A stretch of DNA of 64,000 nt, taken from contig DASZXC010000008.1 of assembly GCA_035546035.1 (NCBI GenBank), positions 123,951 through 187,950 of the forward strand, written 5' to 3'. Source of the stretch: Minisyncoccota bacterium. GTDB taxonomy: Bacteria; Patescibacteriota; Minisyncoccia; Phycocordibacterales; UBA6065. Shown here piece after piece: positions 20,711-57,872 of this stretch. The translations under genes were made by a program, and so were the position numbers. The notes below the pieces were generated by a model, which made no database searches, had not been told where the DNA came from, and saw only the letters and a program-made list of their open reading frames with translations. How positions within the stretch are numbered: the stretch's first letter is position 1; every line of letters starts with the position of its first letter.

Positions 20711-20746
20711 AGGCGGCGCGATTCTCATCGCGCCGCCTGGTTATTT
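20711..20746. terminator. Bidirectional hairpin between convergent rnhA and the hypothetical gene
   Basis: aggcggcgcg-attctcat-cgcgccgcct, a 10-bp GC stem, with T-runs nearby. Confidence 0.55.
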
Positions 20747-21165: not shown

Positions 21166-22638
21166 ATGAAGAGCTTCGCATTCTATCTTTTATCCATATC
21201 TTTTTTCGCCGGAGTGCTCGCGGCGTCTTTTGTCGCTATGCCTTTTGCATTTCTCATATGCGGTGCGATCGCATGCGCGATTGTTCTGATACTGATGCGG
21301 GGCAGGCCGAAGCCTTTCCTATACACATGCTCCGTGCTCGTATGCATAGTCGGAGCTTTGCGATTCGGCGTTACTAAGAGCGACGATCATCCTCTGGATC
21401 AATATATAGGCAGAAAGACGACGGTTTCCGGCATCGTCTGCGCAGAGCCGGATCAAAAGGCGGACGGGCAGAGGTTTTGCTTTCAGCCTGAAAAGAGCCC
21501 TGACCGTATCGTCGTTTCCGCGTCAAAATTTCCCGGATATCGCTATGGGGACGAGCTTCTGATAACGGCGACGCTCAAATTGCCGGAGAATTTCGAGACG
21601 TTCGAAGGCGGCCCTGAATTCGATTACATCTCATATCTCGGCAAAGACGGCATCCGCTATAAAATGTCTTTTCCCAAAATAAAAAGGCTCGCTTCGGGAA
21701 AAGGGAATCCGATCGTTTCGGGGCTCATCGCCATCAAATCCGCTTTCATGGACCGGATACGCGATGCCTTGCCCGAACCGCAGTCGTCATTCGTCGGCGG
21801 ACTGCTTCTGGGCGAAAAGGGGGCTTTGCCCGAAGACGTAACGGAACATTTCCGCCGGTCGGGCTTGACGCATATACTCGTCCTTTCCGGCTCGAACGTA
21901 ACGGTTGTCGCCGAAAGCCTCCTGGCGGCTTTTTCTTTCCTGCCGAAAACGGCGGGAAGATCCGCGGGCGCCGTATCCGTCGTGCTTTTCGCCGTGATGA
22001 CGGGTGCATCCGCCACGACCGTGCGCGCGACGATCATGGCCCTTGTGCATTTATTCGCCGAAGGCATGGGCAGGCGATATGACGTCGTGCGGGCGCTCGT
22101 CCTTTCGGCATTTGTCATGCTCGTTCAGAATCCGCGCATACTGGCATTCGATATATCGTTCCAGCTCTCGTTCCTTGCGACGATAGCCGTTATATTCGTC
22201 GCACCTCTCATAAAAGAACGGCTCTCATTCATCCCTGAACGGTTCGGCATGCGCGAAACTCTTTCGATGACGATCGGAACGCAGATATTCACCCTGCCTT
22301 TCATCCTTTCCAAGATGGGCGAGATATCGGTCATAGCGCTCATACCGAATCTTCTAGTATTGCCGGGCGTCCCGTACGCCATGCTTGGAGGATTCGTACT
22401 GGGCATGGCCGGATTCATCGGCCATATCATTGCCGTACCCTTTGCATGGGCGACGAATCTGCTCCTTGTATACATGCTTAAGACGGTCGATGTGTTCGGT
22501 TCGCTCCCGTTCGCGACGATAAAGGCGCGCGGCTCCCTCTTCGGGGCGCCTCTCTTCGCGGTCTCTTACGCGATCTTCGCCGCGGTCCTTATTTTCCTGC
22601 GGAAGCGGCGTAATTCTCCTCAGCCGTCTGCCAATTGA
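21166..22638 (+). CDS. comEC: DNA internalisation competence protein ComEC/Rec2, membrane (competence) domain only
   Basis: Multi-TM protein with LTHILVLSGSNVTVV competence-domain motif and an N-terminal DUF4131-like region. No metallo-beta-lactamase domain in this ORF. Confidence 0.8.
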   Translation: MKSFAFYLLSISFFAGVLAASFVAMPFAFLICGAIACAIVLILMRGRPKPFLYTCSVLVCIVGALRFGVTKSDDHPLDQYIGRKTTVSGIVCAEPDQKADGQRFCFQPEKSPDRIVVSASKFPGYRYGDELLITATLKLPENFETFEGGPEFDYISYLGKDGIRYKMSFPKIKRLASGKGNPIVSGLIAIKSAFMDRIRDALPEPQSSFVGGLLLGEKGALPEDVTEHFRRSGLTHILVLSGSNVTVVAESLLAAFSFLPKTAGRSAGAVSVVLFAVMTGASATTVRATIMALVHLFAEGMGRRYDVVRALVLSAFVMLVQNPRILAFDISFQLSFLATIAVIFVAPLIKERLSFIPERFGMRETLSMTIGTQIFTLPFILSKMGEISVIALIPNLLVLPGVPYAMLGGFVLGMAGFIGHIIAVPFAWATNLLLVYMLKTVDVFGSLPFATIKARGSLFGAPLFAVSYAIFAAVLIFLRKRRNSPQPSAN

Positions 22639-23259: not shown

Positions 23260-24153
23260 ATGGATATACGAATGGATACAAGGATAAGGACGGGAATCGT
23301 TTTCGGTTTCGCGATTTTGGTATGCGCCGTCTTCGTTCGGTTCTTTATCGCGCGTCCGCATGATGCCTGGCGAGCTTTCGTCGAAGATGGGCTTCTTCAT
23401 GTCTATTTCCTCGATATAGGGCAAGGCGACGCCATATATGTCCGCGCGCCTGACGGAAGCGACATGCTCGTAGACAGCGGCCCTTCGGCGGAAGTTTTGC
23501 GGGAGAAGCTCTCTGACGTCATGCCGCCCGGCGACAGGAAAATAGACGTCGTCGTCGAAACCCATCCCGATGCCGATCATATCTCCGGCTTCCCGGACAT
23601 TTTGGAGGATTTCGAGGTCGGATCATTCCTCGAGCCCGGCATCGGCTCGAAGAATTCTATCGATGACGAGATCAAAAAGCTTGTTTCGGAGAAAGGCATC
23701 CGCGATATCCGCGCGCGGAGAGGAGAGTCGTATAAAATCGGCCCGGACGTCTCGTTCAGGATCCTTTTTCCCGACGAAGACGTCTCGAATTATAAAGACA
23801 CGAATGAAGCCTCCATCGTAGCGGAGGTCGTCTACGCTTCGACGACGGTACTCCTCACAGGCGATTCCCCGAAGAAAATAGAGAATCATCTTATGAAGCT
23901 CGATGCGGCAGGCTTGAGAAGCGATATTCTGAAGCTCGGTCACCACGGATCGCGAACATCGTCGGGCAAAGCCTTCGTCCAAGCGGTGTCTCCCGCATAT
24001 GCCATCGTCTCTGCCGGAGAGGGGAACCGATACGGCCATCCTCACAAGGAAGTCCTGGATATTTTGCGGTCGCTCCATATTCCCGTGCTCCGAACTGATC
24101 GGGAAGGCACGATCGAATTCGTCAGCGACGGAAAAAGGGTTTGGCGAAAATGA
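23260..24153 (+). CDS. ComEC-type metallo-beta-lactamase domain protein (stand-alone C-terminal module of ComEC)
   Basis: N-terminal TM anchor, then HVYFLDIGQGDAIYV..., VETHPDADHISG, LKLGHHGSRTSS: the MBL module normally fused to ComEC. Confidence 0.75.
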   Translation: MDIRMDTRIRTGIVFGFAILVCAVFVRFFIARPHDAWRAFVEDGLLHVYFLDIGQGDAIYVRAPDGSDMLVDSGPSAEVLREKLSDVMPPGDRKIDVVVETHPDADHISGFPDILEDFEVGSFLEPGIGSKNSIDDEIKKLVSEKGIRDIRARRGESYKIGPDVSFRILFPDEDVSNYKDTNEASIVAEVVYASTTVLLTGDSPKKIENHLMKLDAAGLRSDILKLGHHGSRTSSGKAFVQAVSPAYAIVSAGEGNRYGHPHKEVLDILRSLHIPVLRTDREGTIEFVSDGKRVWRK

Positions 24154-24182
24154 AAAAACCCCGCTCCGGCGGGGTTTTTTCG
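24154..24182. terminator. Bidirectional intrinsic terminator between comEC-MBL (+) and rpmB (-)
   Basis: aaaaaaccccgc-tccg-gcggggtttttt, a perfect GC stem flanked by A-run and T-run. Confidence 0.8.
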
Positions 24183-24184
24183 CA

Positions 24185-29343: not shown

Positions 29344-29363
29344 CCTTATTCGAATCTTGCAAG

Positions 29364-29392
29364 AAAAAGCCGCCTCGCGAGGCGGCTTTTTC
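29364..29392 (+). terminator. Intrinsic terminator after fusA
   Basis: aaaaagccgcctcgcgaggcggctttttc. Confidence 0.75.
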
Positions 29393-29444
29393 TTGACCTG
29401 TGGCGAAAGCAGGGTAGTATCGAGACGAAACTTGTACATCAATT

Positions 29445-30059
29445 ATGATTAAAATCGTTGAAAGAACAAAAAGGAATCCTCCGGAAACTGGGCTCCTTAT
29501 CCGCCGCGACGGCATATGGCGTCGCGTCATTCAATTGGACGACCGGCTCGTCGAGGAGCCTTACGAAGGAGTGATCTTTCCGGCGACCGAAAAAGAGATC
29601 GACGAGCTCCTCGCGCGAGGCGTTTCCCCGTATTGGCAGGCCTTCGGAGAGGTCTTCTATGGCGTTCCCCTTGATGACATCAGCGAGACTGCCGATGTCA
29701 GGAAGATCTTCTGGAATAGCAGTCTGGGCAGTCCGGCGTGGCAGAAAGGCTCCGTTCCGAGCCTTCCTCTTCTCGCCGCCGACGTCATCGTCTGCCGGTT
29801 CTTCGAGCATCCGTTCCCGCCGGGGACGCAGGTCCCGGTCAGCGAATTGCTTGCAGGCTTTACGCCGAGCGAAAAAGACCTCGATATCGCTGACGATCCT
29901 CATAAGACGAGCGATCTCCAGGTCTGGCTCACGGCCTGGGCCGCATACCGGAAAGTCACATTCAGCGAATCGCTTCCGATGCGCTCGCTCCTGCTCGACA
30001 AGCTCAAATGCGCGCTCATCGAGCTTGAAGCTCTGGCTAGGGCAGGGAGTTCGGACTAA
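29445..30059 (+). CDS. Hypothetical protein inserted between fusA and tuf
   Basis: 204-aa ORF, no recognisable motif. Own terminator upstream. Confidence 0.45.
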   Translation: MIKIVERTKRNPPETGLLIRRDGIWRRVIQLDDRLVEEPYEGVIFPATEKEIDELLARGVSPYWQAFGEVFYGVPLDDISETADVRKIFWNSSLGSPAWQKGSVPSLPLLAADVIVCRFFEHPFPPGTQVPVSELLAGFTPSEKDLDIADDPHKTSDLQVWLTAWAAYRKVTFSESLPMRSLLLDKLKCALIELEALARAGSSD

Positions 30060-30275: not shown

Positions 30276-31469
30276 ATGGCAGAATTCACACGAAGCAAGC
30301 CGCACGTTAACGTGGGTACCATCGGCCACGTTGACCACGGCAAGACTACGCTTACGACTGCGATCCTCGCGACGCAGGCTCGAGACGGTCTTGCAGTAGG
30401 CAAGGCATACGCAGATATCGCCAAGGGCGGTACCGTGCGCGATGCATCGAAGGTCGTTACCATCTCGCTCGCTCACGTCGAGTACGAGTCGAACGCGCGC
30501 CACTACGCTCACATCGACGCTCCTGGCCACGCCGACTATATCAAGAACATGATCACGGGTGCCGCTCAAATGGACGGCGCTATCCTCGTAGTGTCGGCGA
30601 TCGACGGCCCTATGCCGCAGACTCGAGAGCACATCCTCCTCGCAAAGCAGGTCGGCGTGCCAAGGATCGTGGTATTCCTCAACAAATGCGATGCCGTTGA
30701 AGACAAGGATCTCATCGACCTTGTCGAAGGCGAAGTCAGGGATCTCCTTACGAAATACGGCTATGACGGCGCTAACACTCCTGTTATCCGCGGATCGGCT
30801 CTCAAGGCTCTTGAAGCGAAGGACAATACGGACGAGTGGGCAATGAAGATCAAGGATCTCATGAATACGCTCGACACCTATATCCCTATGCCGGAGCGCG
30901 CTACGGACAAGCCATTCCTCATGCCTATCGAGGACATCTTCTCGATCGAAGGCCGCGGAACTGTGGTCACGGGCCGTATCGAGCGCGGTCAGGTAAAAGT
31001 CGGCGACACCGTCGAGATCGTCGGTATCAAGGACACCACGAACACGACGATCACTGGTATCGAAATGTTCAACAAGCAGCTCCAGTCGGGCATGGCGGGC
31101 GACAACGCCGGCGTTCTCCTCCGCGGCACCGCGAAGGACGCCGTCCATCGCGGTCAGGTCCTCGCAAAGCCGGGCTCGGTCACCCCTCACACCGAATTCG
31201 AGGCAGAGGTCCTCATCCTCAAGAAGGAAGAAGGTGGCCGCCACACTCCATTCTTCAACGGTTACAAGCCGCAGTTCTACGTTCGAACCACGGACGTTAC
31301 CGGCGAAGTCACCCTCAAGCCTGGCGTTGAAATGGTCATGCCTGGCGACACCGTCACGTTTTCGGTCAAGCTCCACGCTCCTATCGCCCTTGAGGCGCAG
31401 CAGCGCTTCGCTATCCGCGAAGGCGGCAAGACCGTAGGCGCAGGCGTCGTCACCAAGATCAACAAGTAA
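30276..31469 (+). CDS. tuf: Elongation factor Tu
   Basis: [22 protein letters not shown]. 397 aa. Confidence 0.97.
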
Positions 31470-31471
31470 TT

Positions 31472-31843
31472 ATGGCTACGGCTCCTAAAAAAGCAGCTCC
31501 GAAGAAGGCTCCGGCAAAAGCGAAAGCGGCAGACACCTCTCCTCGCTTGAGGATCCGCGTGCGAGCGTACGAGAACAAGATCCTCGACGCTTCGGTCAAG
31601 CAGATCATCGACACCGCTCTCCGTTACGACGTAACGGTTCTCGGCCCGGTCCCTCTTCCTACGGAGATCAAGAAATATACGGTGAACCGCTCGTCGTTCG
31701 TATACAAGAATGCGCGAGAACAGTTCGAGATGCGAGTCCACAAGCGCCTCATCGATATCTTGAATCCGAACGCGAAGATCATCGAAGCCCTTACGAATAT
31801 GTCGCTCCCATCGGGCGTGAACATCGACGTCAAGATGATCTAA
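31472..31843 (+). CDS. rpsJ: 30S ribosomal protein S10 (with about 22-aa Lys/Ala-rich N-terminal extension)
   Basis: ..RLRIRVRAYENKILDASVKQIIDTA.. core of uS10. Preceded by MATAPKKAAPKKAPAKAKAA. Confidence 0.92.
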   Translation: MATAPKKAAPKKAPAKAKAADTSPRLRIRVRAYENKILDASVKQIIDTALRYDVTVLGPVPLPTEIKKYTVNRSSFVYKNAREQFEMRVHKRLIDILNPNAKIIEALTNMSLPSGVNIDVKMI

Positions 31844-31844
31844 A

Positions 31845-31910
31845 GCAGAAACCTGCAATATAAAACCACCCCGCCGAGGCCTGGGGTGGTTTTATATTGC
31901 AGGTTTCTGC
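31845..31910. terminator. 66-nt perfect hairpin (28-bp stem) between convergent rpsJ and the pilin gene; bidirectional terminator candidate
   Basis: gcagaaacctgcaatataaaaccacccc-gccgaggcct-ggggtggttttatattgcaggtttctgc. Stem abuts the rpsJ stop (31841-43) and overlaps the pilin stop (31910-12). Confidence 0.7.
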
Positions 31911-32356
31911 TAAGGACAGACCGACGACGTGGCAGGACCCGACGAACCCTTCGATGCGCCCATAGAGTCTACGCACCAATAAGTCGAGGTCGAGACGAGC
32001 TGCGCCGATACCGCCCATGCCGTCTGGGTTCCGGCAGGGGATGCGTAGCATGCCACTGCAGGGGACGTAGATGCCAATGCCGCTATCTGGTCGCTCATCT
32101 TCGGGTCGGCGACGAATATCGAGCCAGAGGTCGAGCATGACGAGACCGTGCCTGCCGCCGATCCGTAATTGCCCGCGCCGTCGAAATAGAGCTCCGCTTG
32201 AGGGCGAAGGGAGACGAGCTGCGCCTTTACGGCCGCGTCGCTGCCCTTGTTTCGCGCCGAATTCAACGATGCGAGCACTACCGACGACAATATGCCGATG
32301 ATAGCGATCACAACGAGGAGTTCGATGAGGGTAAAGCCTTTCTTCAAATTCTTCAT
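31910..32356 (-). CDS. pilA: Type IV major pilin (PilA-like prepilin)
   Basis: Start at internal Met (complement 32354-32356): MKNLKKG/FTLIELLVVIAIIGILSSVVLASL is a class III signal with Glu+5. 148 aa Ser/Ala-rich with C-terminal Cys pair (..WCVD...SVCP). Confidence 0.8.
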   Translation of the reverse strand: MKNLKKGFTLIELLVVIAIIGILSSVVLASLNSARNKGSDAAVKAQLVSLRPQAELYFDGAGNYGSAAGTVSSCSTSGSIFVADPKMSDQIAALASTSPAVACYASPAGTQTAWAVSAQLVSTSTYWCVDSMGASKGSSGPATSSVCP

Positions 32357-35320: not shown

Positions 35321-36231
35321 TCTATGCTTGAATGGATTAAACTTCTTTAACTTATGACTGCTACTCCGTTTGAAATAAAACTTATCGGCAAGATGGCTCT
35401 CGCGAATGAAAAGATTAAGAAGATTCCTCGAAAACTCCATGCGGCCACGTGTCCCATCGAAGGACCGTCGGGAGGAGAGAAATGTAATTGTGGGGCTCAA
35501 GATTTCAATTCGAACCTTGATGGGATCGTCAACGATCTTAAGGTCGATTAATCTCTTTGCAAATCTGGCCACTCCATTGGTCGGGTTTTTTTGAGGAAAT
35601 CGTTGTTTAATAGCGAAAAGTCTTTTACCTATGTCATCCATAAGCCCAGACGTCAGCGATGCTCCGCCCATGGACGATTCTATGCGGCAGTTCATCGCGA
35701 AGATTCCAAAAATCCTTCGAAATGCATCGAATTGGTAAACAAGATCAGCAAAGAGCATGGAGGAGCAGAGGGATTAAGTCCCTCTATTCACAAGAGAGCT
35801 AAGGAGCTCTCTTTTTGTTTGCTTTCTTAGGCTTTAGCCTGGATGATAGAATGTTCCTTATAGATCAATGTTAATTAAACATGATTAAAGTAGAATTTGA
35901 TAAGGGGAGGGGATTTAATCCGCACGTTTCCGATTTCTTAGATGCTCATAAGGAAATGACGTTACTTGGACTTGCATGGGCTTTGTTTTGGAGATTTTCA
36001 GTCGCATATGGCGCTATAGGCATTATTTTTGCAACTTTGTCTAACATTTTAGGCTGGTAATGCAAAATATTTGACTTATTTCCGTCCTCTGATAGGATAT
36101 CCACCACTAGCTTCGGAATGGGCACTAGACGGTAGAAACTAGGTAAAAGCCTAGTTTTTATCTTCCACCAGTTGTTTCTAGCAACTATAGCCCAGACGCC
36201 CGAGCTGTAATCCATTGTTTCAACACAGCAA

Positions 36232-43715: not shown

Positions 43716-43745
43716 TAAAAATCCCGCTCCGGCGGGATTTTTTAT
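43716..43745 (+). terminator. Intrinsic terminator after secY
   Basis: aaaaatcccgctccggcgggatttttt. Confidence 0.8.
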
Positions 43746-45774: not shown

Positions 45775-46006
45775 AAACTTTTTCGACCGCCGGTCGTATT
45801 CATTTACTCTTTCCTTTTTTCGTTTTGCAGGCTTTGTCCCCACTTGTACCTCGGAGAAGGGAGATTATAATGAAATGGGTTATTCGAAAGATTAACTCTA
45901 TAACATTTTTTTAGGGAAATAGCGCATTGAGTCCGATCTTGGTCGGACGTTACGCTTCCCACCTAGTGCAAACTAGGGACAATCTTCCGAATGACCCCCA
46001 GAGAAC

Positions 46007-46036
46007 CCGTTCTCATCCCCGTGAGAACGGTTTTTC
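46007..46036 (+). terminator. Intrinsic terminator upstream of the GC-rich cassette
   Basis: ccgttctca-tccccg-tgagaacgg followed by TTTTT. Confidence 0.6.
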
Positions 46037-46062
46037 TATTCCGGACGGGCGCGCAGAGGCGT

Positions 46063-46818: not shown

Positions 46819-47211
46819 ATGTTCTGGAACCGATTCCTCTTTCCGATGCTCGCCGCGCTGGTCGCCGTTGCCGGCCTGAACTGGATAGGCGGGGCCGAAG
46901 GCTATTATTTTACGACCGCATGGTACGATTGGCCCGTACATTTTTTGGGCGGCGTCTGGTCCGGGCTCTTTCTGCTCTGGATATTCAATCTCCCGCATAT
47001 GGGTCGCTTCAAGCGGTTCGCTTCGCTCGAAGCCGTATTGGGCCTCGTATTCCTCATCGGCCTCGCATGGGAGGGATATGAGCTTTTCTTCGGCCTGACG
47101 AGCCTCTACAAAGCGGGATACGGCTTCGATACGTTCCATGACCTCGTGAACGACGTTCTCGGCGCGGCCGCGGCGTTCTGCCTTACCCGCCGAACTATCG
47201 CTCGCGCATAA
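46819..47211 (+). CDS. Small integral membrane protein (about 4 TM), hypothetical
   Basis: 130 aa, hydrophobic helices, aromatic-rich (WYDWPVHFLGGVWSGLFLLWIF). Confidence 0.45.
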   Translation: MFWNRFLFPMLAALVAVAGLNWIGGAEGYYFTTAWYDWPVHFLGGVWSGLFLLWIFNLPHMGRFKRFASLEAVLGLVFLIGLAWEGYELFFGLTSLYKAGYGFDTFHDLVNDVLGAAAAFCLTRRTIARA

Positions 47212-48590
47212 TGAAAGGATTCACGCTCACAGCATGTGCGGCGGTGGGGAATGCCACAGGGGCGAACTTCCTCGTAGAGACCCCGGAGACGTCGTTCCTC
47301 GTCGACTGCGGCCTGGTCCAGGGATCGCAGTTCGCTCAAGATGAAAATCGAGAACCCTTTCCTTTCGATATTCCCAAGGTATCGTTCCTCCTCGTGACCC
47401 ATGCGCATATGGATCATGTCGGCAGGATACCGAAGCTGGTCCGCGAAGGATTCAGCGGGACCATATATTCGACGCCGGAAACGAAAGAGCTTGCCGCGCT
47501 CATGCTCGACGACGCGGTAGGGCTCTTGGACAGGGAAGCGAAAGAAAAGAAGATCGCGCCTCTGTACGAGCGCTCCGATATCGCCCGCGCCATGGGCCTC
47601 TGGAAGGCGATCGAATACCATGCGCAGACGGACATAACGCCGGATATCTCTGCGCTCTTCAAGGACGCCGGGCACGTCCTCGGCTCCTCTATCATCGAAG
47701 TGACGCTCCGCAATGCCGCCGGCGACAAGGGCGTTACGATCGCGTTCACAGGCGACCTCGGCAATTCGCCGACGCCGCTCCTGCGCGACACGGAATATGT
47801 CACGAACGCCGATTACTTGGTCATGGAATCGGTCTACGGCGACAGGAACCACGAGCCGAAGGATGTCCGCGACCAAAGGCTCAAAGACATACTCGGCGCA
47901 GGCCTCCGGCGCGGCGGGACGGTGGTCATTCCCGCGTTCTCGCTGGAGCGGACGCAGGTCATTCTGTACGAGATCAATAACCTGATCGAATCAGGAGCTA
48001 TTCCGCGCGCTCCGGTATATCTTGATTCTCCTTTGGCCATAAAAGTGACGGACGTATACCGCAGGCATACGGCGGATTTCAATAAGAAGATACAGGGCGC
48101 TATCGAAGGAGGCGACGATATATTCGATTTTCCCGGCCTGCGCATCATCGGGAATCCGCAGGAATCCGCGGCGATCCACGGTATGAAAGGGGCCAAGATC
48201 GTCATCGCCGGTTCCGGTATGTCGGTCGGCGGCCGCGTCCTGTCGCATGAAGCGTTCTATCTTGGAGACCCGGACGCTACGATACTGCTCGTCGGCTATC
48301 AGGTGCCGGGCAGCCTCGGCAGGAAGATAGAGGAGCGCGCGTCGAAGCTCGTCATCAATGGCCAGCCGGTGCGCGTGCGCGCTCGTATAGAGAAGATCAG
48401 TGGCTATTCTTCGCACAAAGATTCGAACGGCATGGTCGAATTCGTGTCGCATGCGTTGCCGAGATTGAAGAGGGCGTTCATCGCCATGGGAGAGACTAAA
48501 TCTTCCGCCTTCCTGGCCCAGCGCCTTCGCGATGAGATCGGGGCGAATGCGATAGTGGCGGAGAAGAATAAGTCGTACGAACTAAAATAA
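47211..48590 (+). CDS. Beta-CASP family metallo-beta-lactamase ribonuclease (RNase J/CPSF-like)
   Basis: MBL motif LVTHAHMDHVGRIP (HxHxDH), downstream ..DAGH.LGSS.. and ..H..H, then beta-CASP and C-terminal RNA-metabolising MBL segments. 459 aa. Confidence 0.75.
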   Translation: MKGFTLTACAAVGNATGANFLVETPETSFLVDCGLVQGSQFAQDENREPFPFDIPKVSFLLVTHAHMDHVGRIPKLVREGFSGTIYSTPETKELAALMLDDAVGLLDREAKEKKIAPLYERSDIARAMGLWKAIEYHAQTDITPDISALFKDAGHVLGSSIIEVTLRNAAGDKGVTIAFTGDLGNSPTPLLRDTEYVTNADYLVMESVYGDRNHEPKDVRDQRLKDILGAGLRRGGTVVIPAFSLERTQVILYEINNLIESGAIPRAPVYLDSPLAIKVTDVYRRHTADFNKKIQGAIEGGDDIFDFPGLRIIGNPQESAAIHGMKGAKIVIAGSGMSVGGRVLSHEAFYLGDPDATILLVGYQVPGSLGRKIEERASKLVINGQPVRVRARIEKISGYSSHKDSNGMVEFVSHALPRLKRAFIAMGETKSSAFLAQRLRDEIGANAIVAEKNKSYELK

Positions 48591-48654
48591 ACTCCGAACG
48601 CATATAAAAACCACCCCAGGGCTTGGCGGGGTGGTTTTTATATGCGTTCGGAGT
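48591..48654. terminator. 64-nt perfect hairpin (27-bp stem) between convergent beta-CASP gene and rplT; sister of the 31845-31910 element
   Basis: actccgaacgcatataaaaaccacccc-agggcttggc-ggggtggtttttatatgcgttcggagt. Stem starts right after the stop at 48588-90 and ends at the rplT stop (48654-56). Confidence 0.7.
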
Positions 48655-48998
48655 TACTTTACCTTCGCAACGATCCTGTCGAACGTCTCCGGGTTGTTGT
48701 GAGCGAGGTCGGCGAGGATCTTGCGGTCGATCTGGATGTTCGCCTTCTTCATGGCGCCCATGAATTTCGAGTAGGAGAGGCTCTTTGCGTCGAGAGCCGC
48801 GTTGATCTTGATTATATTGAGGGAGCGGCGGTCAGATTTCTTGTCGCGGCGATGGGCGAACGCGTATGCGCCCGCGTGCGAGATAGCCTCGTATGCCGCG
48901 CGCTCGTTCGTAGAACGGCGGAAGCGATAGCCCTTTACCTGCTTGAGGACGTTGCGGCGGGTCTTAAGCGCATTTACTCCTTTTTTGACGCGTGCCAT
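48654..48998 (-). CDS. rplT: 50S ribosomal protein L20
   Basis: MARVKKGVNALKTRRNVLKQVKGYRFRRS.. conserved bL20. Confidence 0.92.
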   Translation of the reverse strand: MARVKKGVNALKTRRNVLKQVKGYRFRRSTNERAAYEAISHAGAYAFAHRRDKKSDRRSLNIIKINAALDAKSLSYSKFMGAMKKANIQIDRKILADLAHNNPETFDRIVAKVK

Positions 48999-49025
48999 GG
49001 GTGTTTAAGTTAAAGATATCGAGAA

Positions 49026-49214
49026 TTATCGGATGCCGGCGAGAAAGCGCGCCTTTTCCTTGTGGGTCATGTGAAATTCGACGGTCGAGCCCTTCTTGAT
49101 CTGCGATCGGCCCGATTCCTTGGCGTTGAAGTGGTTCTGGCCGGCGCGGCGCACGAGAACCTTGCCGTTCCTCGTCACTTTGAGCCTCTTCGCGAATGAC
49201 TTGTTCGTTTTCAT
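49026..49214 (-). CDS. rpmI: 50S ribosomal protein L35
   Basis: MKTNKSFAKRLKVTRNGKVLVRRAGQNHFNAK. bL35. Confidence 0.88.
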   Translation of the reverse strand: MKTNKSFAKRLKVTRNGKVLVRRAGQNHFNAKESGRSQIKKGSTVEFHMTHKEKARFLAGIR

Positions 49215-49278
49215 GAGATAAAAATAGCCCGAATGGGCGATAGGGCTATATTAGCGCATTTCCCGGATTTGTCCAGCG

Positions 49279-49791
49279 TTAGGCCCTTTCGATGATGGTC
49301 GTAAGACCTTTCGGGCTTTTCGTGGGCTTTTCGGCTAGCTTATGAGGCTCGGTCACGAGAGTGAGGATGCGCTTGAGGCGCTCTTCGAGGAATTTCGGAT
49401 CCATGTATTTAGACCTGCCCGGAAGGAAGAGGTCGAGCTTGATCCTGTGGCCTTCTTTGAGCCATTCGGACGCTTTCTTGGCCTTGAGCTCCAGATCGTG
49501 CTCGCCGGTCCCTATCTTGACCTGTAACGACTTTATCTCGATGACATGGGCCTTTGCTTTCTGAGCTTTTTGCTTCTTGTTCTCTTCGTACGAGAATTTG
49601 CCGTAGTCGGTGATCTTGGCTACAGGCGGGACGGCGTTAGGGGAGATCTCGATGAGGTCGAGTCCGGCGCCGTGCGCCTTTTGGAGCGCTTCGGAGAGGG
49701 AAATGACGCCATAGTTCTCGCCCTCGGGGCCGATGACGCGCAATTCCAGCGCTTTTATCTGGTGATTTATTCGAGTCCTGTCTTTGCTCAT
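49279..49791 (-). CDS. infC: Translation initiation factor IF-3
   Basis: ..INHQIKALELRVIGPEGENYGVISLSEALQKAHGAGLDLIEISPNAVPPVAKI. IF3 N- and C-domains. First gene of the infC-rpmI-rplT operon. Confidence 0.9.
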   Translation of the reverse strand: MSKDRTRINHQIKALELRVIGPEGENYGVISLSEALQKAHGAGLDLIEISPNAVPPVAKITDYGKFSYEENKKQKAQKAKAHVIEIKSLQVKIGTGEHDLELKAKKASEWLKEGHRIKLDLFLPGRSKYMDPKFLEERLKRILTLVTEPHKLAEKPTKSPKGLTTIIERA

Positions 49792-52835: not shown

Positions 52836-53297
52836 TTATACAGCGCATCGTTTGCATATGCCGAAGAATTCGAGGGTATGGTCGGTGATCTCCGCGAAGC
52901 GCTTCATGGCGAGCGAGTTTGCCGAAGGCATCGGCGCGCAGGCGTCCACCGATTCCATGGCGCCGCATGCCGTGCAGGTGATGTGATGATGATGCGGTCG
53001 GCCGATATTGGTCTCATAGAGTGCTTCGGTGCTGCCGATGTCTATCTTGCGGACGAGCTTTGCTTTCAGGAGAGTCTCCAGGGTGCGGTAGAGAGTTGCG
53101 GTGTCGTGTTTTTGCACGGATCGACGGAGCTCTTTTATCGAAACAGGGCGATCGAAATGCGAGAGGGCGGTCAAGATGTGGATCCTGGCTTTAGTCACTT
53201 TGCGCTTCGCGGTATATATATGGGTGCCGAGGGCGATCTCTTCGCTCGTATATTTTTCTAGGATGTCTTTTTTGTTCGACGGTCGGCGATTGTGCAT
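52836..53297 (-). CDS. zur: Fur-family metalloregulator (likely Zur)
   Basis: Start taken at internal Met (MHNRRPSNKK..). Winged-helix ..TKARIHILTAL.., then HHHHITCTAC....CKRC metal sites. Divergent from a ZIP zinc transporter. Confidence 0.78.
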   Translation of the reverse strand: MHNRRPSNKKDILEKYTSEEIALGTHIYTAKRKVTKARIHILTALSHFDRPVSIKELRRSVQKHDTATLYRTLETLLKAKLVRKIDIGSTEALYETNIGRPHHHHITCTACGAMESVDACAPMPSANSLAMKRFAEITDHTLEFFGICKRCAV

Positions 53298-53300
53298 AAA

Positions 53301-53347
53301 ACCATGATATTCTAGTTGCAAATGATTTGCAACTAGAATATCATGGT
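53301..53347. promoter_or_regulatory. 47-bp palindromic operator (23-bp perfect arms) in the zur-ZIP divergent intergenic region
   Basis: accatgatattctagttgcaaat-g-atttgcaactagaatatcatggt. Core TTGCAAATGATTTGCAA is Fur/Zur-box-like. It produces the artefactual shared MQLEYHGF N-termini of both flanking track ORFs. Confidence 0.7.
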
Positions 53348-53410
53348 TTTCGAGACGATATCTCGCCTCAAGTCCTCGATTTTATCTATCTAATATTTGC
53401 TCGTCCTATC

Positions 53411-54136
53411 ATGATCATCCTGATTGCCCTCGGCGCATTAGCGGCTACGTTCTTCGGCGGTCTCTTCGCTCTCAGATGGAGCGACAAGCTCCATCTGATC
53501 CTCGGCTTTTCCGCGGGCGCTCTTATCGGCGTCGCATTGTTCGACCTCATGCCGGAGGCATTAGAGCTCGGCGGGGGATATTGGAACCTCGACATGCTCA
53601 TGCTCGCCCTAGCGGGGGGATTCACCGCGTATCTTCTCCTTGATCGGATGTTCCTTATGCACTGCCATGAAGAGGACCATGACCATCGCTCTCATCACGC
53701 GCATCGCGGACGATTCGGCGCGGGAAGCCTCTCGTTCCATAGCTTCCTCGACGGCGCGGCGATAGGCGTCGCCTTCCACGTATCGCCGGTCATCGGTGCG
53801 GTCGTCGCGGCGGCGGTCTTGGCCCATGATTTCTCCGACGGTATCAATACGGTGAGCATGATCCTCCGACACGGCGGGGAAAAGAGGCAGGCGTTCCGCT
53901 GGCTCGTCGTGGACGCGGTCGCGCCGGTCGTCGGCATCGCCTCGACCTATTTCTTCTCGATATCGGAATCAGCGCTCTCGCTCGTCCTCATGGTGTTCTG
54001 CGGATTCTTTATATATATAGGCGCGAGCGACCTCCTGCCGGAAAGCCATCATAAGCACCCGACCCGCTGGACGACCATCACGACCATCATAGGCATGGCG
54101 GTCATATATATGGTGGTGCATATCGCAGGGGTTTAG
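53411..54136 (+). CDS. zupT: ZIP family metal (zinc) transporter ZupT-like
   Basis: Start at internal Met (MIILIALGA..). His-rich loop HEEDHDHRSHHAHRG. Conserved ..HSFLDGAAIGVAF.. and ..LAHDFSDGI.. ZIP motifs. Confidence 0.8.
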   Translation: MIILIALGALAATFFGGLFALRWSDKLHLILGFSAGALIGVALFDLMPEALELGGGYWNLDMLMLALAGGFTAYLLLDRMFLMHCHEEDHDHRSHHAHRGRFGAGSLSFHSFLDGAAIGVAFHVSPVIGAVVAAAVLAHDFSDGINTVSMILRHGGEKRQAFRWLVVDAVAPVVGIASTYFFSISESALSLVLMVFCGFFIYIGASDLLPESHHKHPTRWTTITTIIGMAVIYMVVHIAGV

Positions 54137-54386: not shown

Positions 54387-54414
54387 CAAAAAGCTCCCTC
54401 GAGGGAGCTTTTTT
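54387..54414 (+). terminator. Intrinsic terminator after pspC-domain gene
   Basis: aaaaagctccctcgagggagctttttt. Confidence 0.8.
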
Positions 54415-54419
54415 ATTTG

Positions 54420-54819
54420 TGGAGATGCCGAGAGTCGAACTCGGGTGCAGAAAGATGTTCCAGTTGCTTCTACGCGACCTAGCGGTCTTTTGCCAGTGAG
54501 GCTTTAAGCGGGCGCACTATAAAGATTCGCGAAACGTGCGGACGCCGATCTTCGCGGGCCGAAGCCCTTCGATAAGGAGCGAAGAGTCTCCGTATCTATC
54601 CTGGATCTATAACACCGGGTCCTGCCGCGCCAGGAATGCGAGCGGGCCGATGTCGTTTAGGCGGGGCTTATTAAGCAGCCGCGTAAGCGAATGAAAACGT
54701 GTTCGTCGCGAAAGGCGATTTTACAGATTTTGCATTTGATGGGCGGAAAGTTTAGAGAGGTATCCTGCTCTATCGCGCGCAAAGGGAAGCTGTCCCTCTG
54801 TCTATGCCTGTCATCCCCA
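54420..54819 (-). ncRNA. ssrA: tmRNA (SsrA)
   Basis: Minus-strand 5' end GGGGAUGACAGGCAU... pairs with 3' end ...GGUUCGACUCUCGGCAUCUCC-A (T-arm-like GUUCGA, 7-bp acceptor stem with G3:U70). Immediately downstream of smpB. Internal frame GCG ACG AAC ACG UUU UCA UUC GCU UAC GCG GCU GCU UAA UAA (about 54669-54710) is a candidate tag ORF. Confidence 0.8.
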
Positions 54820-55266
54820 TTATTCTTGTCCTTTCAATGTTCTCCTGATGTCCCGGTCGGTCTCGCGCTTTTGGATCGAAGCCCGTTTGTCGAACTTCTT
54901 CTTGCCGCGGACGACTGCAATAGCTACCTTGAGCTTTGTTCCTTTATTATACACCCGAATTGGCACTATTGTCAAGCCCTTCTTGGCTTCCATATCAGCC
55001 AATTGGCGTATTTCGGCCTTGGTCATGATCAGTCGGCGCATGCGCATCGGGTCATAATCTGCCGGAGTGTTCGTCGGCTGATAGGGAGCGATTGACATCT
55101 GCAGTATATACGCCTCTCCGCCGCGTATAGTTACATAGGCGCCGTCGAGCACGGCGCCGTGCGTGCGCAAGGACTTCGCTTCGAGGCCGAGCAATTCGAT
55201 GCCGGCCTCGTATTCATCGAGGATCTCGTAGTCGAAGAAGGCTTTTTTGTTTTCCGCGAGGGCCAT
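54820..55266 (-). CDS. smpB: SsrA-binding protein SmpB
   Basis: ..NKKAFFDYEILD..EAGIELLGLEAKS.R...., basic C-terminal tail. 148 aa. Confidence 0.92.
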   Translation of the reverse strand: MALAENKKAFFDYEILDEYEAGIELLGLEAKSLRTHGAVLDGAYVTIRGGEAYILQMSIAPYQPTNTPADYDPMRMRRLIMTKAEIRQLADMEAKKGLTIVPIRVYNKGTKLKVAIAVVRGKKKFDKRASIQKRETDRDIRRTLKGQE

Positions 55267-57260: not shown

Positions 57261-57290
57261 AAAAAGAGCCGCTCCGAAGGAGCGGCTCTT
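57259..57290. terminator. Bidirectional terminator between ftsH and the minus-strand hypothetical gene
   Basis: aaaaaagagccgctccgaaggagcggctctt. Confidence 0.7.
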
Positions 57291-57796: not shown

Positions 57797-57872
57797 GCGC
57801 CTATAGCTCAGTTGGTTAGAGCATCGAGCTTATACCTCGAGGGTCCTTGGTTCGAATCCAAGTAGGCGCACC
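57797..57872 (+). tRNA. tRNA-Ile with anticodon UAU (reads AUA)
   Basis: Manual fold of gcgccta-ta-gctc-agttggtta-gagc-a-tcgag-ctTATac-ctcga-gggtc-cttgg-ttcgaat-ccaag-taggcgc-a-cc. All four stems pair (acceptor 7 bp). T-loop TTCGAAT. Anticodon loop c-t-TAT-a-c. CCA not encoded. Confidence 0.8.

What the first reader, a model, noticed from the sequence alone, without database searches (positions are those of the whole stretch)
31845..31910. Family of long perfect hairpins with shared core ATATAAAA(A)CCACCCC...GGGGTGG(T)TTTTATAT acting as bidirectional terminators at convergent gene ends (second copy 48591-48654)
Two elements with 28-bp and 27-bp perfect stems share an identical 15-16-nt inner core. 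They differ in outer stem and loop. Each is wedged exactly between the stop codons of convergent genes (rpsJ / pilA, and the beta-CASP gene / rplT). Because of the A-run before and T-run after the GC core, they would form U-tailed hairpins on either strand. Stems this long and perfectly matched exceed ordinary intrinsic terminators and resemble a dispersed REP/terminator repeat family that copies itself into convergent intergenic regions.
Basis: seen in the sequence. Interest (0 to 1): 0.5.

Follow-up and report, generated by a model that had tools for sequence, protein, structure and literature searches.

The report
Twin oversized bidirectional terminator hairpins
Two unusually long, perfectly paired hairpins between convergent genes of a tiny candidate-phyla-radiation bacterium are overgrown two-way transcription stop signals that share a copied 40-base centre; nothing found so far shows they belong to a genome-wide mobile repeat.

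Summary
E1 (31844-31911) has 29-bp perfect arms and E2 (48590-48655) has 28-bp perfect arms, each with a 10-nt loop. Each fills the gap between convergent stop codons (tuf-rpsJ >< pilin-like gene; beta-CASP gene >< rplT-rpmI-infC). The host is a Candidatus Paceibacterota (Patescibacteria) MAG.

The two therefore share a homologous 40-42-nt centre, in the same orientation relative to the ribosomal-protein gene. The 12-14-nt outer arms are unrelated.

The inner 22 nt (AAAACCACCCC...GGGGTGGTTTT) is a generic terminator stem, found in at least 120 species, about 46% of them Patescibacteria.

No third copy turned up in the window, in 97 kb of relatives and other DNA from the same sample, or in metagenome, viral, plasmid and phage collections. 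Relatives at 85-89% DNA identity carry ordinary 15-16-bp terminators after rpsJ. More distant relatives carry 10-13-bp terminators after rplT. Both elements are therefore recent, lineage-specific replacements in terminator slots.

Best reading: paralogous, enlarged bidirectional intrinsic terminators. REP, MITE and uptake-sequence features are not met. How the centre was copied and how the outer arms arose is unresolved; template switching is the leading but untested idea. Interest is modest.

The parts
31844..31911 (.). E1: complete 68-nt hairpin with 29-bp perfect arms and a 10-nt loop. It fills the rpsJ >< pilin-like gene junction.
   Evidence: RNA fold -57.3 (+ strand) and -59.4 (- strand) kcal/mol, z about -10 to -12. 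DNA fold -34.4 kcal/mol.
31858..31897 (+). E1 central module: ATATAAAACCACCCC, loop GCCGAGGCCT, GGGGTGGTTTTATAT. This is the part homologous to E2 and the part that looks like a terminator on both strands.
   Evidence: 38 of 42 aligned columns identical to reverse-complemented E2; my count from that alignment. (module alone -23.8 kcal/mol). The terminator scan lists 31854-31901 first among its hits.
31844..31857 (.). E1 left outer arm AGCAGAAACCTGCA. Locus-specific; pairs with 31898-31911.
   Evidence: not similar to the E2 outer arm (shuffle p 0.77), and no other copy in the window.
31898..31911 (.). E1 right outer arm TGCAGGTTTCTGCT. Its last 2 nt are part of the pilin-like gene's stop codon.
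48590..48655 (.). E2: complete 66-nt hairpin with 28-bp perfect arms and a 10-nt loop. It fills the beta-CASP >< rplT junction.
   Evidence: RNA fold -52.4 (+) and -60.3 (-) kcal/mol. DNA fold -33.5 kcal/mol. Identical in the Logan contig L001 from SRR12170516.
48602..48643 (-). E2 central module. Read on the - strand (the rplT sense) it is ATATAAAAACCACCCC, loop GCCAAGCCCT, GGGGTGGTTTTTATAT.
   Evidence: the loop matches E1 at 8/10 only in this orientation, against 1/10 in the other.
48590..48601 (.). E2 left outer arm AACTCCGAACGC. Its first base is the last base of the beta-CASP stop codon.
48644..48655 (.). E2 right outer arm GCGTTCGGAGTT. Its last 2 nt are part of the rplT stop codon.
30276..31843 (+). 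tuf (30276-31469) and rpsJ (31472-31843): the transcription unit that E1 would terminate on the + strand.
   Evidence: Pfam hits GTP_EFTU and Ribosomal_S10.
31910..32356 (-). Type IV pilin-like gene (N_methyl motif; 148 aa from the start used by NCBI, protein HVU06570.1). It lies between rpsJ and rplC and would be terminated by E1 on the - strand.
   Evidence: rplC, rplD, rplW and rplB follow on the + strand.
47211..48590 (+). Beta-CASP / metallo-beta-lactamase RNA-metabolising hydrolase gene, terminated by E2 on the + strand.
   Evidence: Protein HVU06596.1.
48654..49791 (-). rplT (48654-48998), rpmI (49026-49214) and infC (49279-49791): the operon that E2 would terminate on the - strand.

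Best explanation
E1 and E2 are two paralogous, recently formed, oversized bidirectional intrinsic (Rho-independent) terminators in a Candidatus Paceibacterota genome.

The working part is the shared 40-42-nt centre. On either strand the RNA reads A-tract, 7-bp GC stem (CCACCCC/GGGGUGG), 10-nt loop, then UUUU(U)AUAU. RNA polymerase arriving from either convergent gene would meet a GC hairpin followed by a U-tract and release. This ends the highly expressed tuf-rpsJ and infC-rpmI-rplT units and shields the convergent pilin-like and beta-CASP genes from antisense read-through.

The centre was copied from one terminator slot to the other, or into both from a third, after this lineage split from its sequenced relatives. 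In each case it replaced an ordinary 10-16-bp terminator.

The 12-14-bp outer arms are locus-specific and are not needed for termination. A transcript that stops in the U-tract never contains the downstream outer arm. They are most likely a DNA-level by-product: intrastrand template switching (snap-back replication) perfects and lengthens palindromes, and it can spread outward only until it reaches coding sequence. That would explain why the arms end at the stop codons.

Shown: the anatomy, the position, the homology of the centres, and the derived state relative to the relatives. Inferred: termination activity, the copying event, and the template-switch origin of the outer arms.
For: Anatomy and position. 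The terminator scan lists E1 first among its hits. Folding energies are -52 to -60 kcal/mol on both strands, z -10 to -13, and the centre alone folds at -21.5 to -23.8 kcal/mol.

Every convergent junction in the window is filled by an A-tract/GC/T-tract hairpin: 20711-20738, 24152-24181, 54388-54413 and 57264-57290. E1 and E2 are therefore the long end of a local rule.

Orthologous slots in relatives hold ordinary terminators. After rpsJ: CAAGAAAAAACCCCGC-caaa-GCGGGGTTTTTTCTTG (16 bp) in L153-L156, at 86-89% DNA identity, and AAGAAAAAGCCCCGC-tct-GCGGGGCTTTTTCTT (15 bp) in L158. After rplT: 10-13-bp hairpins in L148, L150 and L151.

The two relatives' junction sequences resemble each other (p 0.001-0.002). 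Neither half of E1 resembles them (p 0.10-0.26). E1 is therefore the derived state.

Homology of the centres: alignment score 52 with E2 reverse-complemented against 34 in the direct orientation, and loops 8/10. Empirical null: 8 of 803 loop pairs reach 80% identity, and the ATAT flank occurs in 1 of 120.

Template switching is a documented way to create and perfect inverted repeats (PMC8794818, PMC5941160). At two other orthologous sites the window has longer perfect stems than its close relative (18 vs under 11 bp after fusA, 17 vs 11 bp after rplB). After rplB, four base-pair differences are changed on both arms (the count of four is my reading of that alignment).
Against: No transcript data, so termination is inferred from sequence only.

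A 10-nt loop is long for an efficient terminator. The other hairpins here mostly have short loops of 0-5 nt.

The template-switch origin is not demonstrated. Neither E1 arm is significantly similar to the ancestral flank reconstructed from L153 and L158, so a single mirror-copy of an existing flank does not explain E1.

No mechanism is known that would copy a 40-nt hairpin between loci 16.7 kb apart without flanking homology.

Only about 64 kb of this genome, plus one 3.6-kb contig from the same sample, could be examined. A larger family cannot be excluded.

In the close relative, the rpmB junction carries a longer (imperfect) palindrome than the window does. The tendency towards longer stems is therefore not one-directional.
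Confidence: 0.6

Rival explanations
1. E1 and E2 are two visible members of a dispersed, self-propagating palindromic repeat family (REP-, MITE- or Correia-like) that inserts at gene ends and has been co-opted as a terminator.
For: The centres, including the loops, are homologous beyond chance. Both copies replaced older terminators after the split from relatives at 85-89% identity. That is what insertion or replacement by a spreading element would look like. Two copies in 64 kb of a genome whose largest known contig is 380 kb would extrapolate to at least about ten.
Against: The conserved part is the centre and the ends differ (outer arms p 0.77), the reverse of terminal-inverted-repeat elements. 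There is no target-site duplication. No further full or partial copy exists in the window at up to 3 mismatches, in 97 kb of relatives and another contig of the same sample, in JGI metagenomes, or in viral contigs, plasmids and phages. None of the 58 window ORFs scanned against Pfam hit a transposase, integrase or Y1-transposase family. No GTAG-type REP head is present.
Confidence: 0.2
2. The two are independent, convergent terminators. Each grew from the CCACCCC/GGGGTGG stem that is common in Patescibacteria, and the extra similarity (ATAT flank, loop) is coincidence.
For: The 22-nt inner core occurs in at least 120 species, 55 of them Patescibacteria by my count of record titles. It occurs right after rpmB in a distant relative (L099). 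An unrelated AT-rich groundwater contig (L135) carries ATATAAAAACCACCCC-GCCGAAGC-GGGGTGGTTTTTATA, with a similar loop start. Loops that begin GC and end GC are common because they extend the stem.
Against: Empirical joint probability is about 1e-5 for a pair that already shares the core: same loop length about 0.11, loop identity of at least 80% about 0.01, ATAT flank about 0.008. There are only 91 pairs among the 14 long hairpins of the window. Both are also the two longest palindromes in the window, and both loops have the same orientation relative to the ribosomal-protein gene.
Confidence: 0.12
3. The long perfect duplex has a function of its own beyond termination. Candidates are an RNase III processing or stability site in read-through RNA, a cruciform or protein-binding site on DNA, or paired DNA-uptake sequences in a bacterium that encodes type IV pilus and ComEC genes.
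For: Stems of 28-29 bp exceed what termination needs and are long enough for RNase III (my own knowledge, not tested here). The window encodes ComEC (21166-22638), PilB, PilC and pilins. Uptake sequences are known to occur as inverted pairs in terminators (PMC1852404).
Against: The outer arms are not conserved between the two copies, so no sequence-specific site extends beyond the centre. The 15-mer occurs only within the two hairpins, with no scattered single copies, unlike uptake sequences. Relatives function with 10-16-bp hairpins at the same slots.
Confidence: 0.08

Closest known systems
Bidirectional intrinsic (Rho-independent) terminators between convergent genes
   Same: A GC-rich stem flanked by an A-tract and a T-tract, so both strands give a hairpin plus U-tail. 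The location is between convergent stop codons, and one DNA segment serves two genes. Such shared terminators are described as more constrained than unidirectional ones in Bacillus cereus (PMC5381666). Their pervasiveness in E. coli and B. subtilis is my own recollection of the literature, not checked here.
   Different: Perfect arms of 28-29 bp, against 10-16 bp at the same slots in relatives and at most 26 bp among the other 1.12 Mb of fetched loci. The loop is 10 nt. A second, locus-specific palindromic layer lies outside the U-tract and cannot take part in termination of the released RNA.
REP / BIME elements with RAYT transposases
   Same: Extragenic palindromes, often at the 3' ends of convergent genes, that can affect termination and mRNA stability. 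REPs are described as context-dependent 3'UTR regulators in the preprint 10.64898/2026.03.23.713779.
   Different: REPs are imperfect palindromes of 20-40 nt with a conserved GTAG-type head, present in tens to hundreds of copies and linked to a Y1 transposase (my own knowledge). Here there are two perfect copies, no such head, no RAYT in the window, and conservation only in the centre.
MITEs used as terminators (e.g. Neisseria Correia elements, pneumococcal RUP/BOX)
   Same: Small non-coding repeats that fold as hairpins and sit between genes (reviewed in PMC3184786; pneumococcal repeats in PMC3049150).
   Different: MITEs keep their terminal inverted repeats and make direct target-site duplications. 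E1 and E2 differ at their ends and have no duplication.
Perfect inverted repeats made or maintained by replication template switching
   Same: Template switching creates perfect stems in one event and repairs both arms together (PMC8794818). It is considered the best explanation for the excess of perfect inverted repeats in bacterial genomes (PMC5941160). It can also expand repeats (PMC13100816). This fits arms that are perfect, locus-specific and bounded by coding sequence.
   Different: The expected footprint was not detected for E1: one arm identical to an ancestral flank. Template switching within a locus also does not explain the shared centre at two loci.
Conserved-sequence terminator families (mycobacterial TRIT) and uptake-sequence pairs in terminators
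   Same: A repeated, sequence-conserved hairpin motif marking defined 3' ends (TRIT is mentioned in PMC3384566). Inverted uptake-sequence pairs can form terminators (PMC1852404).
   Different: Those motifs occur in many copies per genome. Only two copies are known here, and there are no single scattered copies.

Membership tests
Bidirectional intrinsic terminator | GC-rich stem-loop immediately followed by a U-rich tract, on both strands | tested here: met
   CCACCCC/GGGGTGG stem followed by TTTT(T)ATAT on the + strand, and the mirror image on the - strand. The terminator scan lists E1 first among its hits. Both strands fold stably.
Bidirectional intrinsic terminator | Lies directly downstream of the stop codons of two convergent genes | tested here: met
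   rpsJ >< pilin-like gene and beta-CASP >< rplT. The arms abut or overlap the stop codons by 0-2 nt.
Bidirectional intrinsic terminator | Transcripts actually end in the U-tract | not testable with these tools
   No RNA data are available. This needs Term-seq or 3'-end mapping on SRR12170516-type material or an enrichment culture.
Bidirectional intrinsic terminator | The same slot is occupied by a terminator in related genomes | tested here: met
   15-16-bp hairpins after rpsJ in L153-L156 and L158. 10-13-bp hairpins after rplT in L148, L150 and L151.
REP / BIME (RAYT-associated) | Many dispersed extragenic copies per genome | tested here: inconclusive
   2 copies in 64 kb. None in a further 3.6 kb from the same sample or in 94 kb of relatives.
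REP / BIME (RAYT-associated) | Conserved head tetranucleotide (GTAG-type) and an imperfect 20-40-nt palindrome | tested here: not met
   Arms are perfect, 28-29 nt, with no GTAG head.
REP / BIME (RAYT-associated) | Y1 (IS200/IS605-like) RAYT transposase gene in the genome | tested here: inconclusive
   No Y1_Tnp or any other transposase family among the 58 window ORFs scanned against Pfam. The gene could lie elsewhere in the genome.
MITE | Terminal inverted repeats conserved between copies | tested here: not met
   The outer arms AGCAGAAACCTGCA and AACTCCGAACGC are no more similar than shuffles (p 0.77). Conservation is in the centre.
MITE | Direct target-site duplication flanking each copy | tested here: not met
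   Flanks are ...GATGATCTAA | AAGGACAG... and ...CTAAAATA | ACTTTACC..., with no direct repeat.
DNA uptake sequence pairs | The short motif is strongly over-represented genome-wide, also as single copies inside genes | tested here: not met
   ATATAAAACCACCCC with up to 3 mismatches occurs only in the four hairpin arms, plus one 3-mismatch chance-level hit.
Template-switch-generated inverted repeat | The derived arm is a reverse-complement copy of sequence already present next to it in the ancestor | tested here: inconclusive
   The ancestral junction is recoverable: L153 vs L158 give p 0.001-0.002. Neither E1 half matches it significantly (p 0.10-0.26). The sequences are too short for a firm answer.
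Known RNA families (Rfam 15) | Match at or above a family's gathering score | tested here: not met
   The only gathering-level hits in the window are a tRNA and the tmRNA. At the elements there are only far sub-threshold hits, mostly to eukaryotic miRNA-precursor models plus a few bacterial sRNA and phage models, i.e. generic long hairpins.

The most novel reading that the evidence does not exclude
In this Paceibacterota lineage, terminator hairpins behave as a copy-and-paste module. A roughly 40-nt palindromic terminator core overwrites the whole spacer of another terminator slot without flanking homology, then grows outward by snap-back synthesis until it reaches the stop codons. This would be a minimal, protein-less, self-propagating terminator element. 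It would also explain why cores of the CCACCCC type and the CCCCGC type appear at different ribosomal-protein gene ends in different relatives. At the rpsJ slot, the window has CCACCCC and L153 and L158 have CCCCGC. At the rpmB slot, the window has CCCCGC, L099 has CCACCCC, and L153 has a degenerate AAAACC...GGTGGTTTT nested inside another hairpin.
Probability: 0.15. Interest if true: 0.6.

Novelty: new variant of a known kind. Interest (0 to 1): 0.35.

Why it matters
If the reading is right, the elements themselves are ordinary in function: two-way transcription stops.

They do offer a clean natural example of how fast terminators turn over in ultra-small CPR genomes. Whole intergenic spacers differ between genomes that are 86-89% identical, while the stop-to-stop spacing stays almost the same (63 vs 66 nt at the rpsJ junction). 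Two operon ends also acquired the same 40-nt core.

That poses a concrete, testable question: are terminators exchanged between loci, and do palindromes grow by template switching until selection on coding sequence stops them?

For annotation, the practical lesson is that the AAAACCACCCC...GGGGTGGTTTT stem is generic in Patescibacteria and should not on its own be taken as a repeat family.

Tried and rejected
1. Genome-wide census. 

2. Metagenome scan with the ATAT-containing pattern. 26 hits, none from this organism and none with long stems.

3. Viral scan of core plus loop: 0 hits. Plasmid and phage BLAST: no match.

4. Exact-protein look-ups for other strains. rplT found only the same Logan contig. 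tuf is not on record.

5. E2 slot in the closest relatives. The closest relative by rplT (96%, P0242) and by beta-CASP (83%, P0002) are JGI contigs whose DNA could not be fetched. The E2 slot therefore could not be compared in a close relative.

6. Insertion into an older hairpin's loop. Rejected for E1, because the ancestral stem CAAGAAAAAACCCCGC is not found as E1's outer arm.

7. One E1 arm being the ancestral flank and the other its mirror copy. Not supported statistically.

8. Outer-arm sequences copied from elsewhere in the window. No other match at up to 3 mismatches.

9. Relocation of the 198-aa ORF upstream of the beta-CASP gene from the downstream position seen in L148. Rejected, because the proteins are unrelated.

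10. Rfam: no meaningful hit.

11. Assembly artefact. Considered unlikely. Both elements lie in the middle of a contig between intact genes, and E2 is identical in a separate Logan assembly from run SRR12170516. I could not confirm whether that run is also the source of the MAG, so it may not be independent data.

Full report
**1. What is in the sequence**

E1 spans 31844-31911: AGCAGAAACCTGCAATATAAAACCACCCC / gccgaggcct / GGGGTGGTTTTATATTGCAGGTTTCTGCT. E2 spans 48590-48655: AACTCCGAACGCATATAAAAACCACCCC / agggcttggc / GGGGTGGTTTTTATATGCGTTCGGAGTT. Each has a 10-nt loop.

They are the two longest inverted repeats in the window. The pattern CCACCCC-N6-14-GGGGTGG occurs only at these two places, and in none of 100 shuffles.

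As RNA, both strands of both elements fold at -52 to -60 kcal/mol, with z -10 to -13. As DNA they fold at -34.4 and -33.5 kcal/mol. Ordinary terminators from this clade give -15 to -19 kcal/mol.

**2. Context**

- tuf (30276-31469) and rpsJ (31472-31843) converge on a type IV pilin-like gene (31910-32356, N_methyl motif).
- A beta-CASP metallo-hydrolase gene (47211-48590) converges on rplT-rpmI-infC (48654-49791).

E1 begins at the base after the rpsJ stop and overlaps the pilin stop by 2 nt. E2 overlaps the two stops by 1 and 2 nt.

The pilin-like gene sits, inverted, between rpsJ and rplC, so the S10 operon is split at this point.

The organism is a Candidatus Paceibacterota (Patescibacteria/CPR) MAG. 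The window is 56% GC, and the proteins HVU06596.1 and HVU06570.1 lie on a 380-kb contig.

A crude gene map combined with a hairpin census shows that convergent gaps in this compact genome are generally filled stop-to-stop by an A-tract/GC/T-tract hairpin: 20711-20738, 24152-24181, 54388-54413 and 57264-57290. The exact wedging is therefore the local rule, not a peculiarity of E1 and E2.

**3. Is the shared core more than chance?**

The inner 22 nt is not diagnostic. By my count of record titles, 55 of these are Patescibacteria. It behaves as a common terminator stem.

The rest of the similarity is not generic:
- When E2 is reverse-complemented, its loop GCCAAGCCCT matches E1's GCCGAGGCCT at 8/10 positions, against 1/10 in the other orientation. 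The global alignment score rises from 34 to 52. By my count from that alignment, 38 of the 42 aligned columns of the centre are identical.
- The A-run and T-run lengths differ in a mirrored way (4/4 vs 5/5).
- Among 120 unrelated hairpins with the identical core, only 8 of 803 same-length loop pairs reach 80% identity, and several of those look like orthologues. Only 1 of 120 has the ATAT flank.

With 14 long hairpins in the window (91 pairs), a pair this similar is not expected by chance. The two centres are homologous. Both loops have the same orientation relative to the ribosomal-protein gene (rpsJ, rplT).

The outer arms (14 and 12 nt) are no more alike than shuffles (p 0.77).

**4. Is there a family?**

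No third copy, full or partial, was found in any of these:
- the window at up to 3 mismatches;
- 97 kb made up of relatives plus another contig from the same sample;
- JGI metagenomes (26 hits to the ATAT-containing pattern, all unrelated, perfect stems 7-21 bp);
- viral contigs;
- plasmids and phages.

None of the 58 window ORFs scanned against Pfam hit a transposase, integrase or Y1-transposase family. There is no target-site duplication.

The rest of this genome could not be reached, so the genome-wide count remains open.

**5. Comparison with relatives**

A relative with 86-89% DNA identity (GCA_035545915.1 and three Logan assemblies; L153-L156) has the same rpsJ >< pilin arrangement and an almost identical spacer length (63 vs 66 nt). 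Its spacer holds an ordinary 16-bp hairpin, CAAGAAAAAACCCCGC-caaa-GCGGGGTTTTTTCTTG, with non-palindromic flanks.

A second relative (L158, 85% identity over tuf-rpsJ) has AAGAAAAAGCCCCGC-tct-GCGGGGCTTTTTCTT after rpsJ.

The two relatives' junction sequences resemble each other (p 0.001-0.002). Neither half of E1 resembles them (p 0.10-0.26). E1 is therefore a derived, near-complete replacement of the ancestral spacer.

After rplT, more distant relatives carry 10-13-bp terminators, and the neighbouring gene differs from genome to genome. The closest relatives for this slot had no retrievable DNA.

Long perfect hairpins are not unique to this genome. In the other 1.12 Mb of fetched loci, 23 perfect hairpins have stems of 20 bp or more, with a maximum of 26. 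E1 and E2 are the extreme of a continuum.

Other orthologous terminators also differ between the window and its close relative:
- After fusA: 18 bp in the window against under 11 bp in the relative.
- After rplB: 17 against 11 bp, with four pairs changed on both arms by my reading of the alignment.
- At the rpmB junction: 13 bp in the window against an 89-nt imperfect nested palindrome in the relative.

**6. Mechanism**

The centre has everything a bidirectional intrinsic terminator needs and occupies slots that hold terminators in relatives. That function is the best-supported inference, but it is untested.

A transcript released in the U-tract never contains the downstream outer arm, so the outer arms are not part of the terminating hairpin. 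Their perfection, their locus-specific sequence and their ending at the stop codons fit DNA-level palindrome perfection and extension by template switching. That process is documented for creating and maintaining perfect stems (PMC8794818, PMC5941160, PMC13100816). Outward spread would be halted by selection on coding sequence.

I could not find the direct footprint of such an event.

How the same centre came to sit at two loci is not explained by any known mechanism. I treat copying between terminator slots as an inference.

One further inference, from my own knowledge of ribosome footprints: a ribosome terminating at the stop codon would cover about the length of an outer arm. During coupled translation, only the inner module would then be free to fold.

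**7. Comparison with known kinds**

The elements work like bidirectional intrinsic terminators and meet the testable criteria for that class. They fail the tested criteria for:
- MITEs (conserved ends, target-site duplication);
- REPs (GTAG head, imperfect short palindrome);
- uptake-sequence pairs (scattered single copies);
- any Rfam family.

**8. Verdict**

These are terminators, and they are related to each other. The claim of a dispersed, self-copying family is unsupported so far.

They are a new variant of a known kind and of modest interest. The most novel reading still open is a copy-and-paste terminator module combined with template-switch palindrome growth in CPR genomes. I give that about 15%.

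Noticed in passing
window 45866-46037 (RNA candidate 45877-45998, + strand): A 122-nt non-coding stretch between ndk and the DUF2238/beta-CASP genes is 77-88% identical to relatives whose neighbouring coding DNA is only about 67-74% identical (L148 7422-7619, L150 9295-9523, L151 9388-9514). A TATAAT box lies 11 nt upstream and a hairpin terminator (46000-46037) follows. The consensus fold has 39 pairs, 4 with changes on both sides. MFE is -47.3 kcal/mol with z -6.25. There is no Rfam 15 hit at E<=1. This is a candidate new small RNA or riboswitch of Paceibacterota, possibly more interesting than the finding itself.
   Followed up: partly
window 53298-53350: A 26-bp perfect palindrome with a 1-nt centre lies over the start regions of a divergent FUR-family gene (52836-53321, -) and a ZIP zinc-transporter gene (53327-54136, +). 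The inner half-site CTAGTTGCAAAT is near-identical to CTACTTGCAAAT at the same place in L150 (18151-18175) and L151 (18064-18104). It looks like a Zur/Fur operator, not a terminator and not related to E1 or E2.
   Followed up: partly
window 31910-32356 and 35323-36231: The S10 ribosomal-protein operon is interrupted twice. An inverted type IV pilin-like gene lies between rpsJ and rplC, and this is conserved in the 86-89% relative. A roughly 0.9-kb variable stretch lies between rplB and rpsS. Relatives carry AAA_15 and DUF3226 genes there, and the window has only short unannotated ORFs.
   Followed up: partly
L153 8878-8966 (relative; orthologous to window 24154-24184): The Lactamase_B >< rpmB spacer of the close relative is an 89-nt imperfect palindrome running from stop to stop. 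It is built as one terminator-like hairpin (AAAAAAGACCGGT...ACCGGTCTTTTTTT) with a second one nested in its loop (GAGAAAACC...GGTGGTTTTCGAG). The inner arm resembles half of the E core. The window has a plain 13-bp hairpin at this site. A distant relative (L099 3538-3569) has a full AAAACCACCCC...GGGGTGGTTTT hairpin right after rpmB.
   Followed up: partly
window 24152-24181 and 43717-43742: Two other terminators share stem and loop: AAAAAACCCCGC-tccg-GCGGGGTTTTTT and AAAAATCCCGC-tccg-GCGGGATTTTT. The one stem difference is mirrored on both arms. This is either limited sequence space or another case of related terminators at different loci.
   Followed up: no
loci L002-L121 (genome-contig scan): About 46% (55 of 120 by my count of record titles) of the species carrying the exact AAAACCACCCC-N6-14-GGGGTGGTTTT hairpin are Patescibacteria, 31 of them Saccharibacteria. 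This looks like an over-representation, which I did not quantify. It suggests a preferred terminator stem in the CPR.
   Followed up: no
window 57797-57872: A tRNA-Ile with anticodon TAT (UAU). To my knowledge this is an uncommon way for bacteria to read AUA, and it is usually associated with the absence of the lysidine (TilS) route.
   Followed up: no
window 29445-30059: A 204-aa ORF without Pfam hits, preceded by an 18-bp perfect hairpin (29360-29395), lies between fusA and tuf. A 206-aa ORF is in the same place in L158, but the close relative L153 has only 247 nt there. This is an indel inside the str operon region.
   Followed up: no
window 54388-54413 / 54417-54818: The 13-bp palindrome AAAAAGCTCCCTC/GAGGGAGCTTTTT fills the gap between a PspC-domain gene's stop and the 3' end of the tmRNA gene (ssrA, - strand; smpB follows at 54820-55266). 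It probably serves as a shared terminator for a protein gene and an RNA gene.
   Followed up: no
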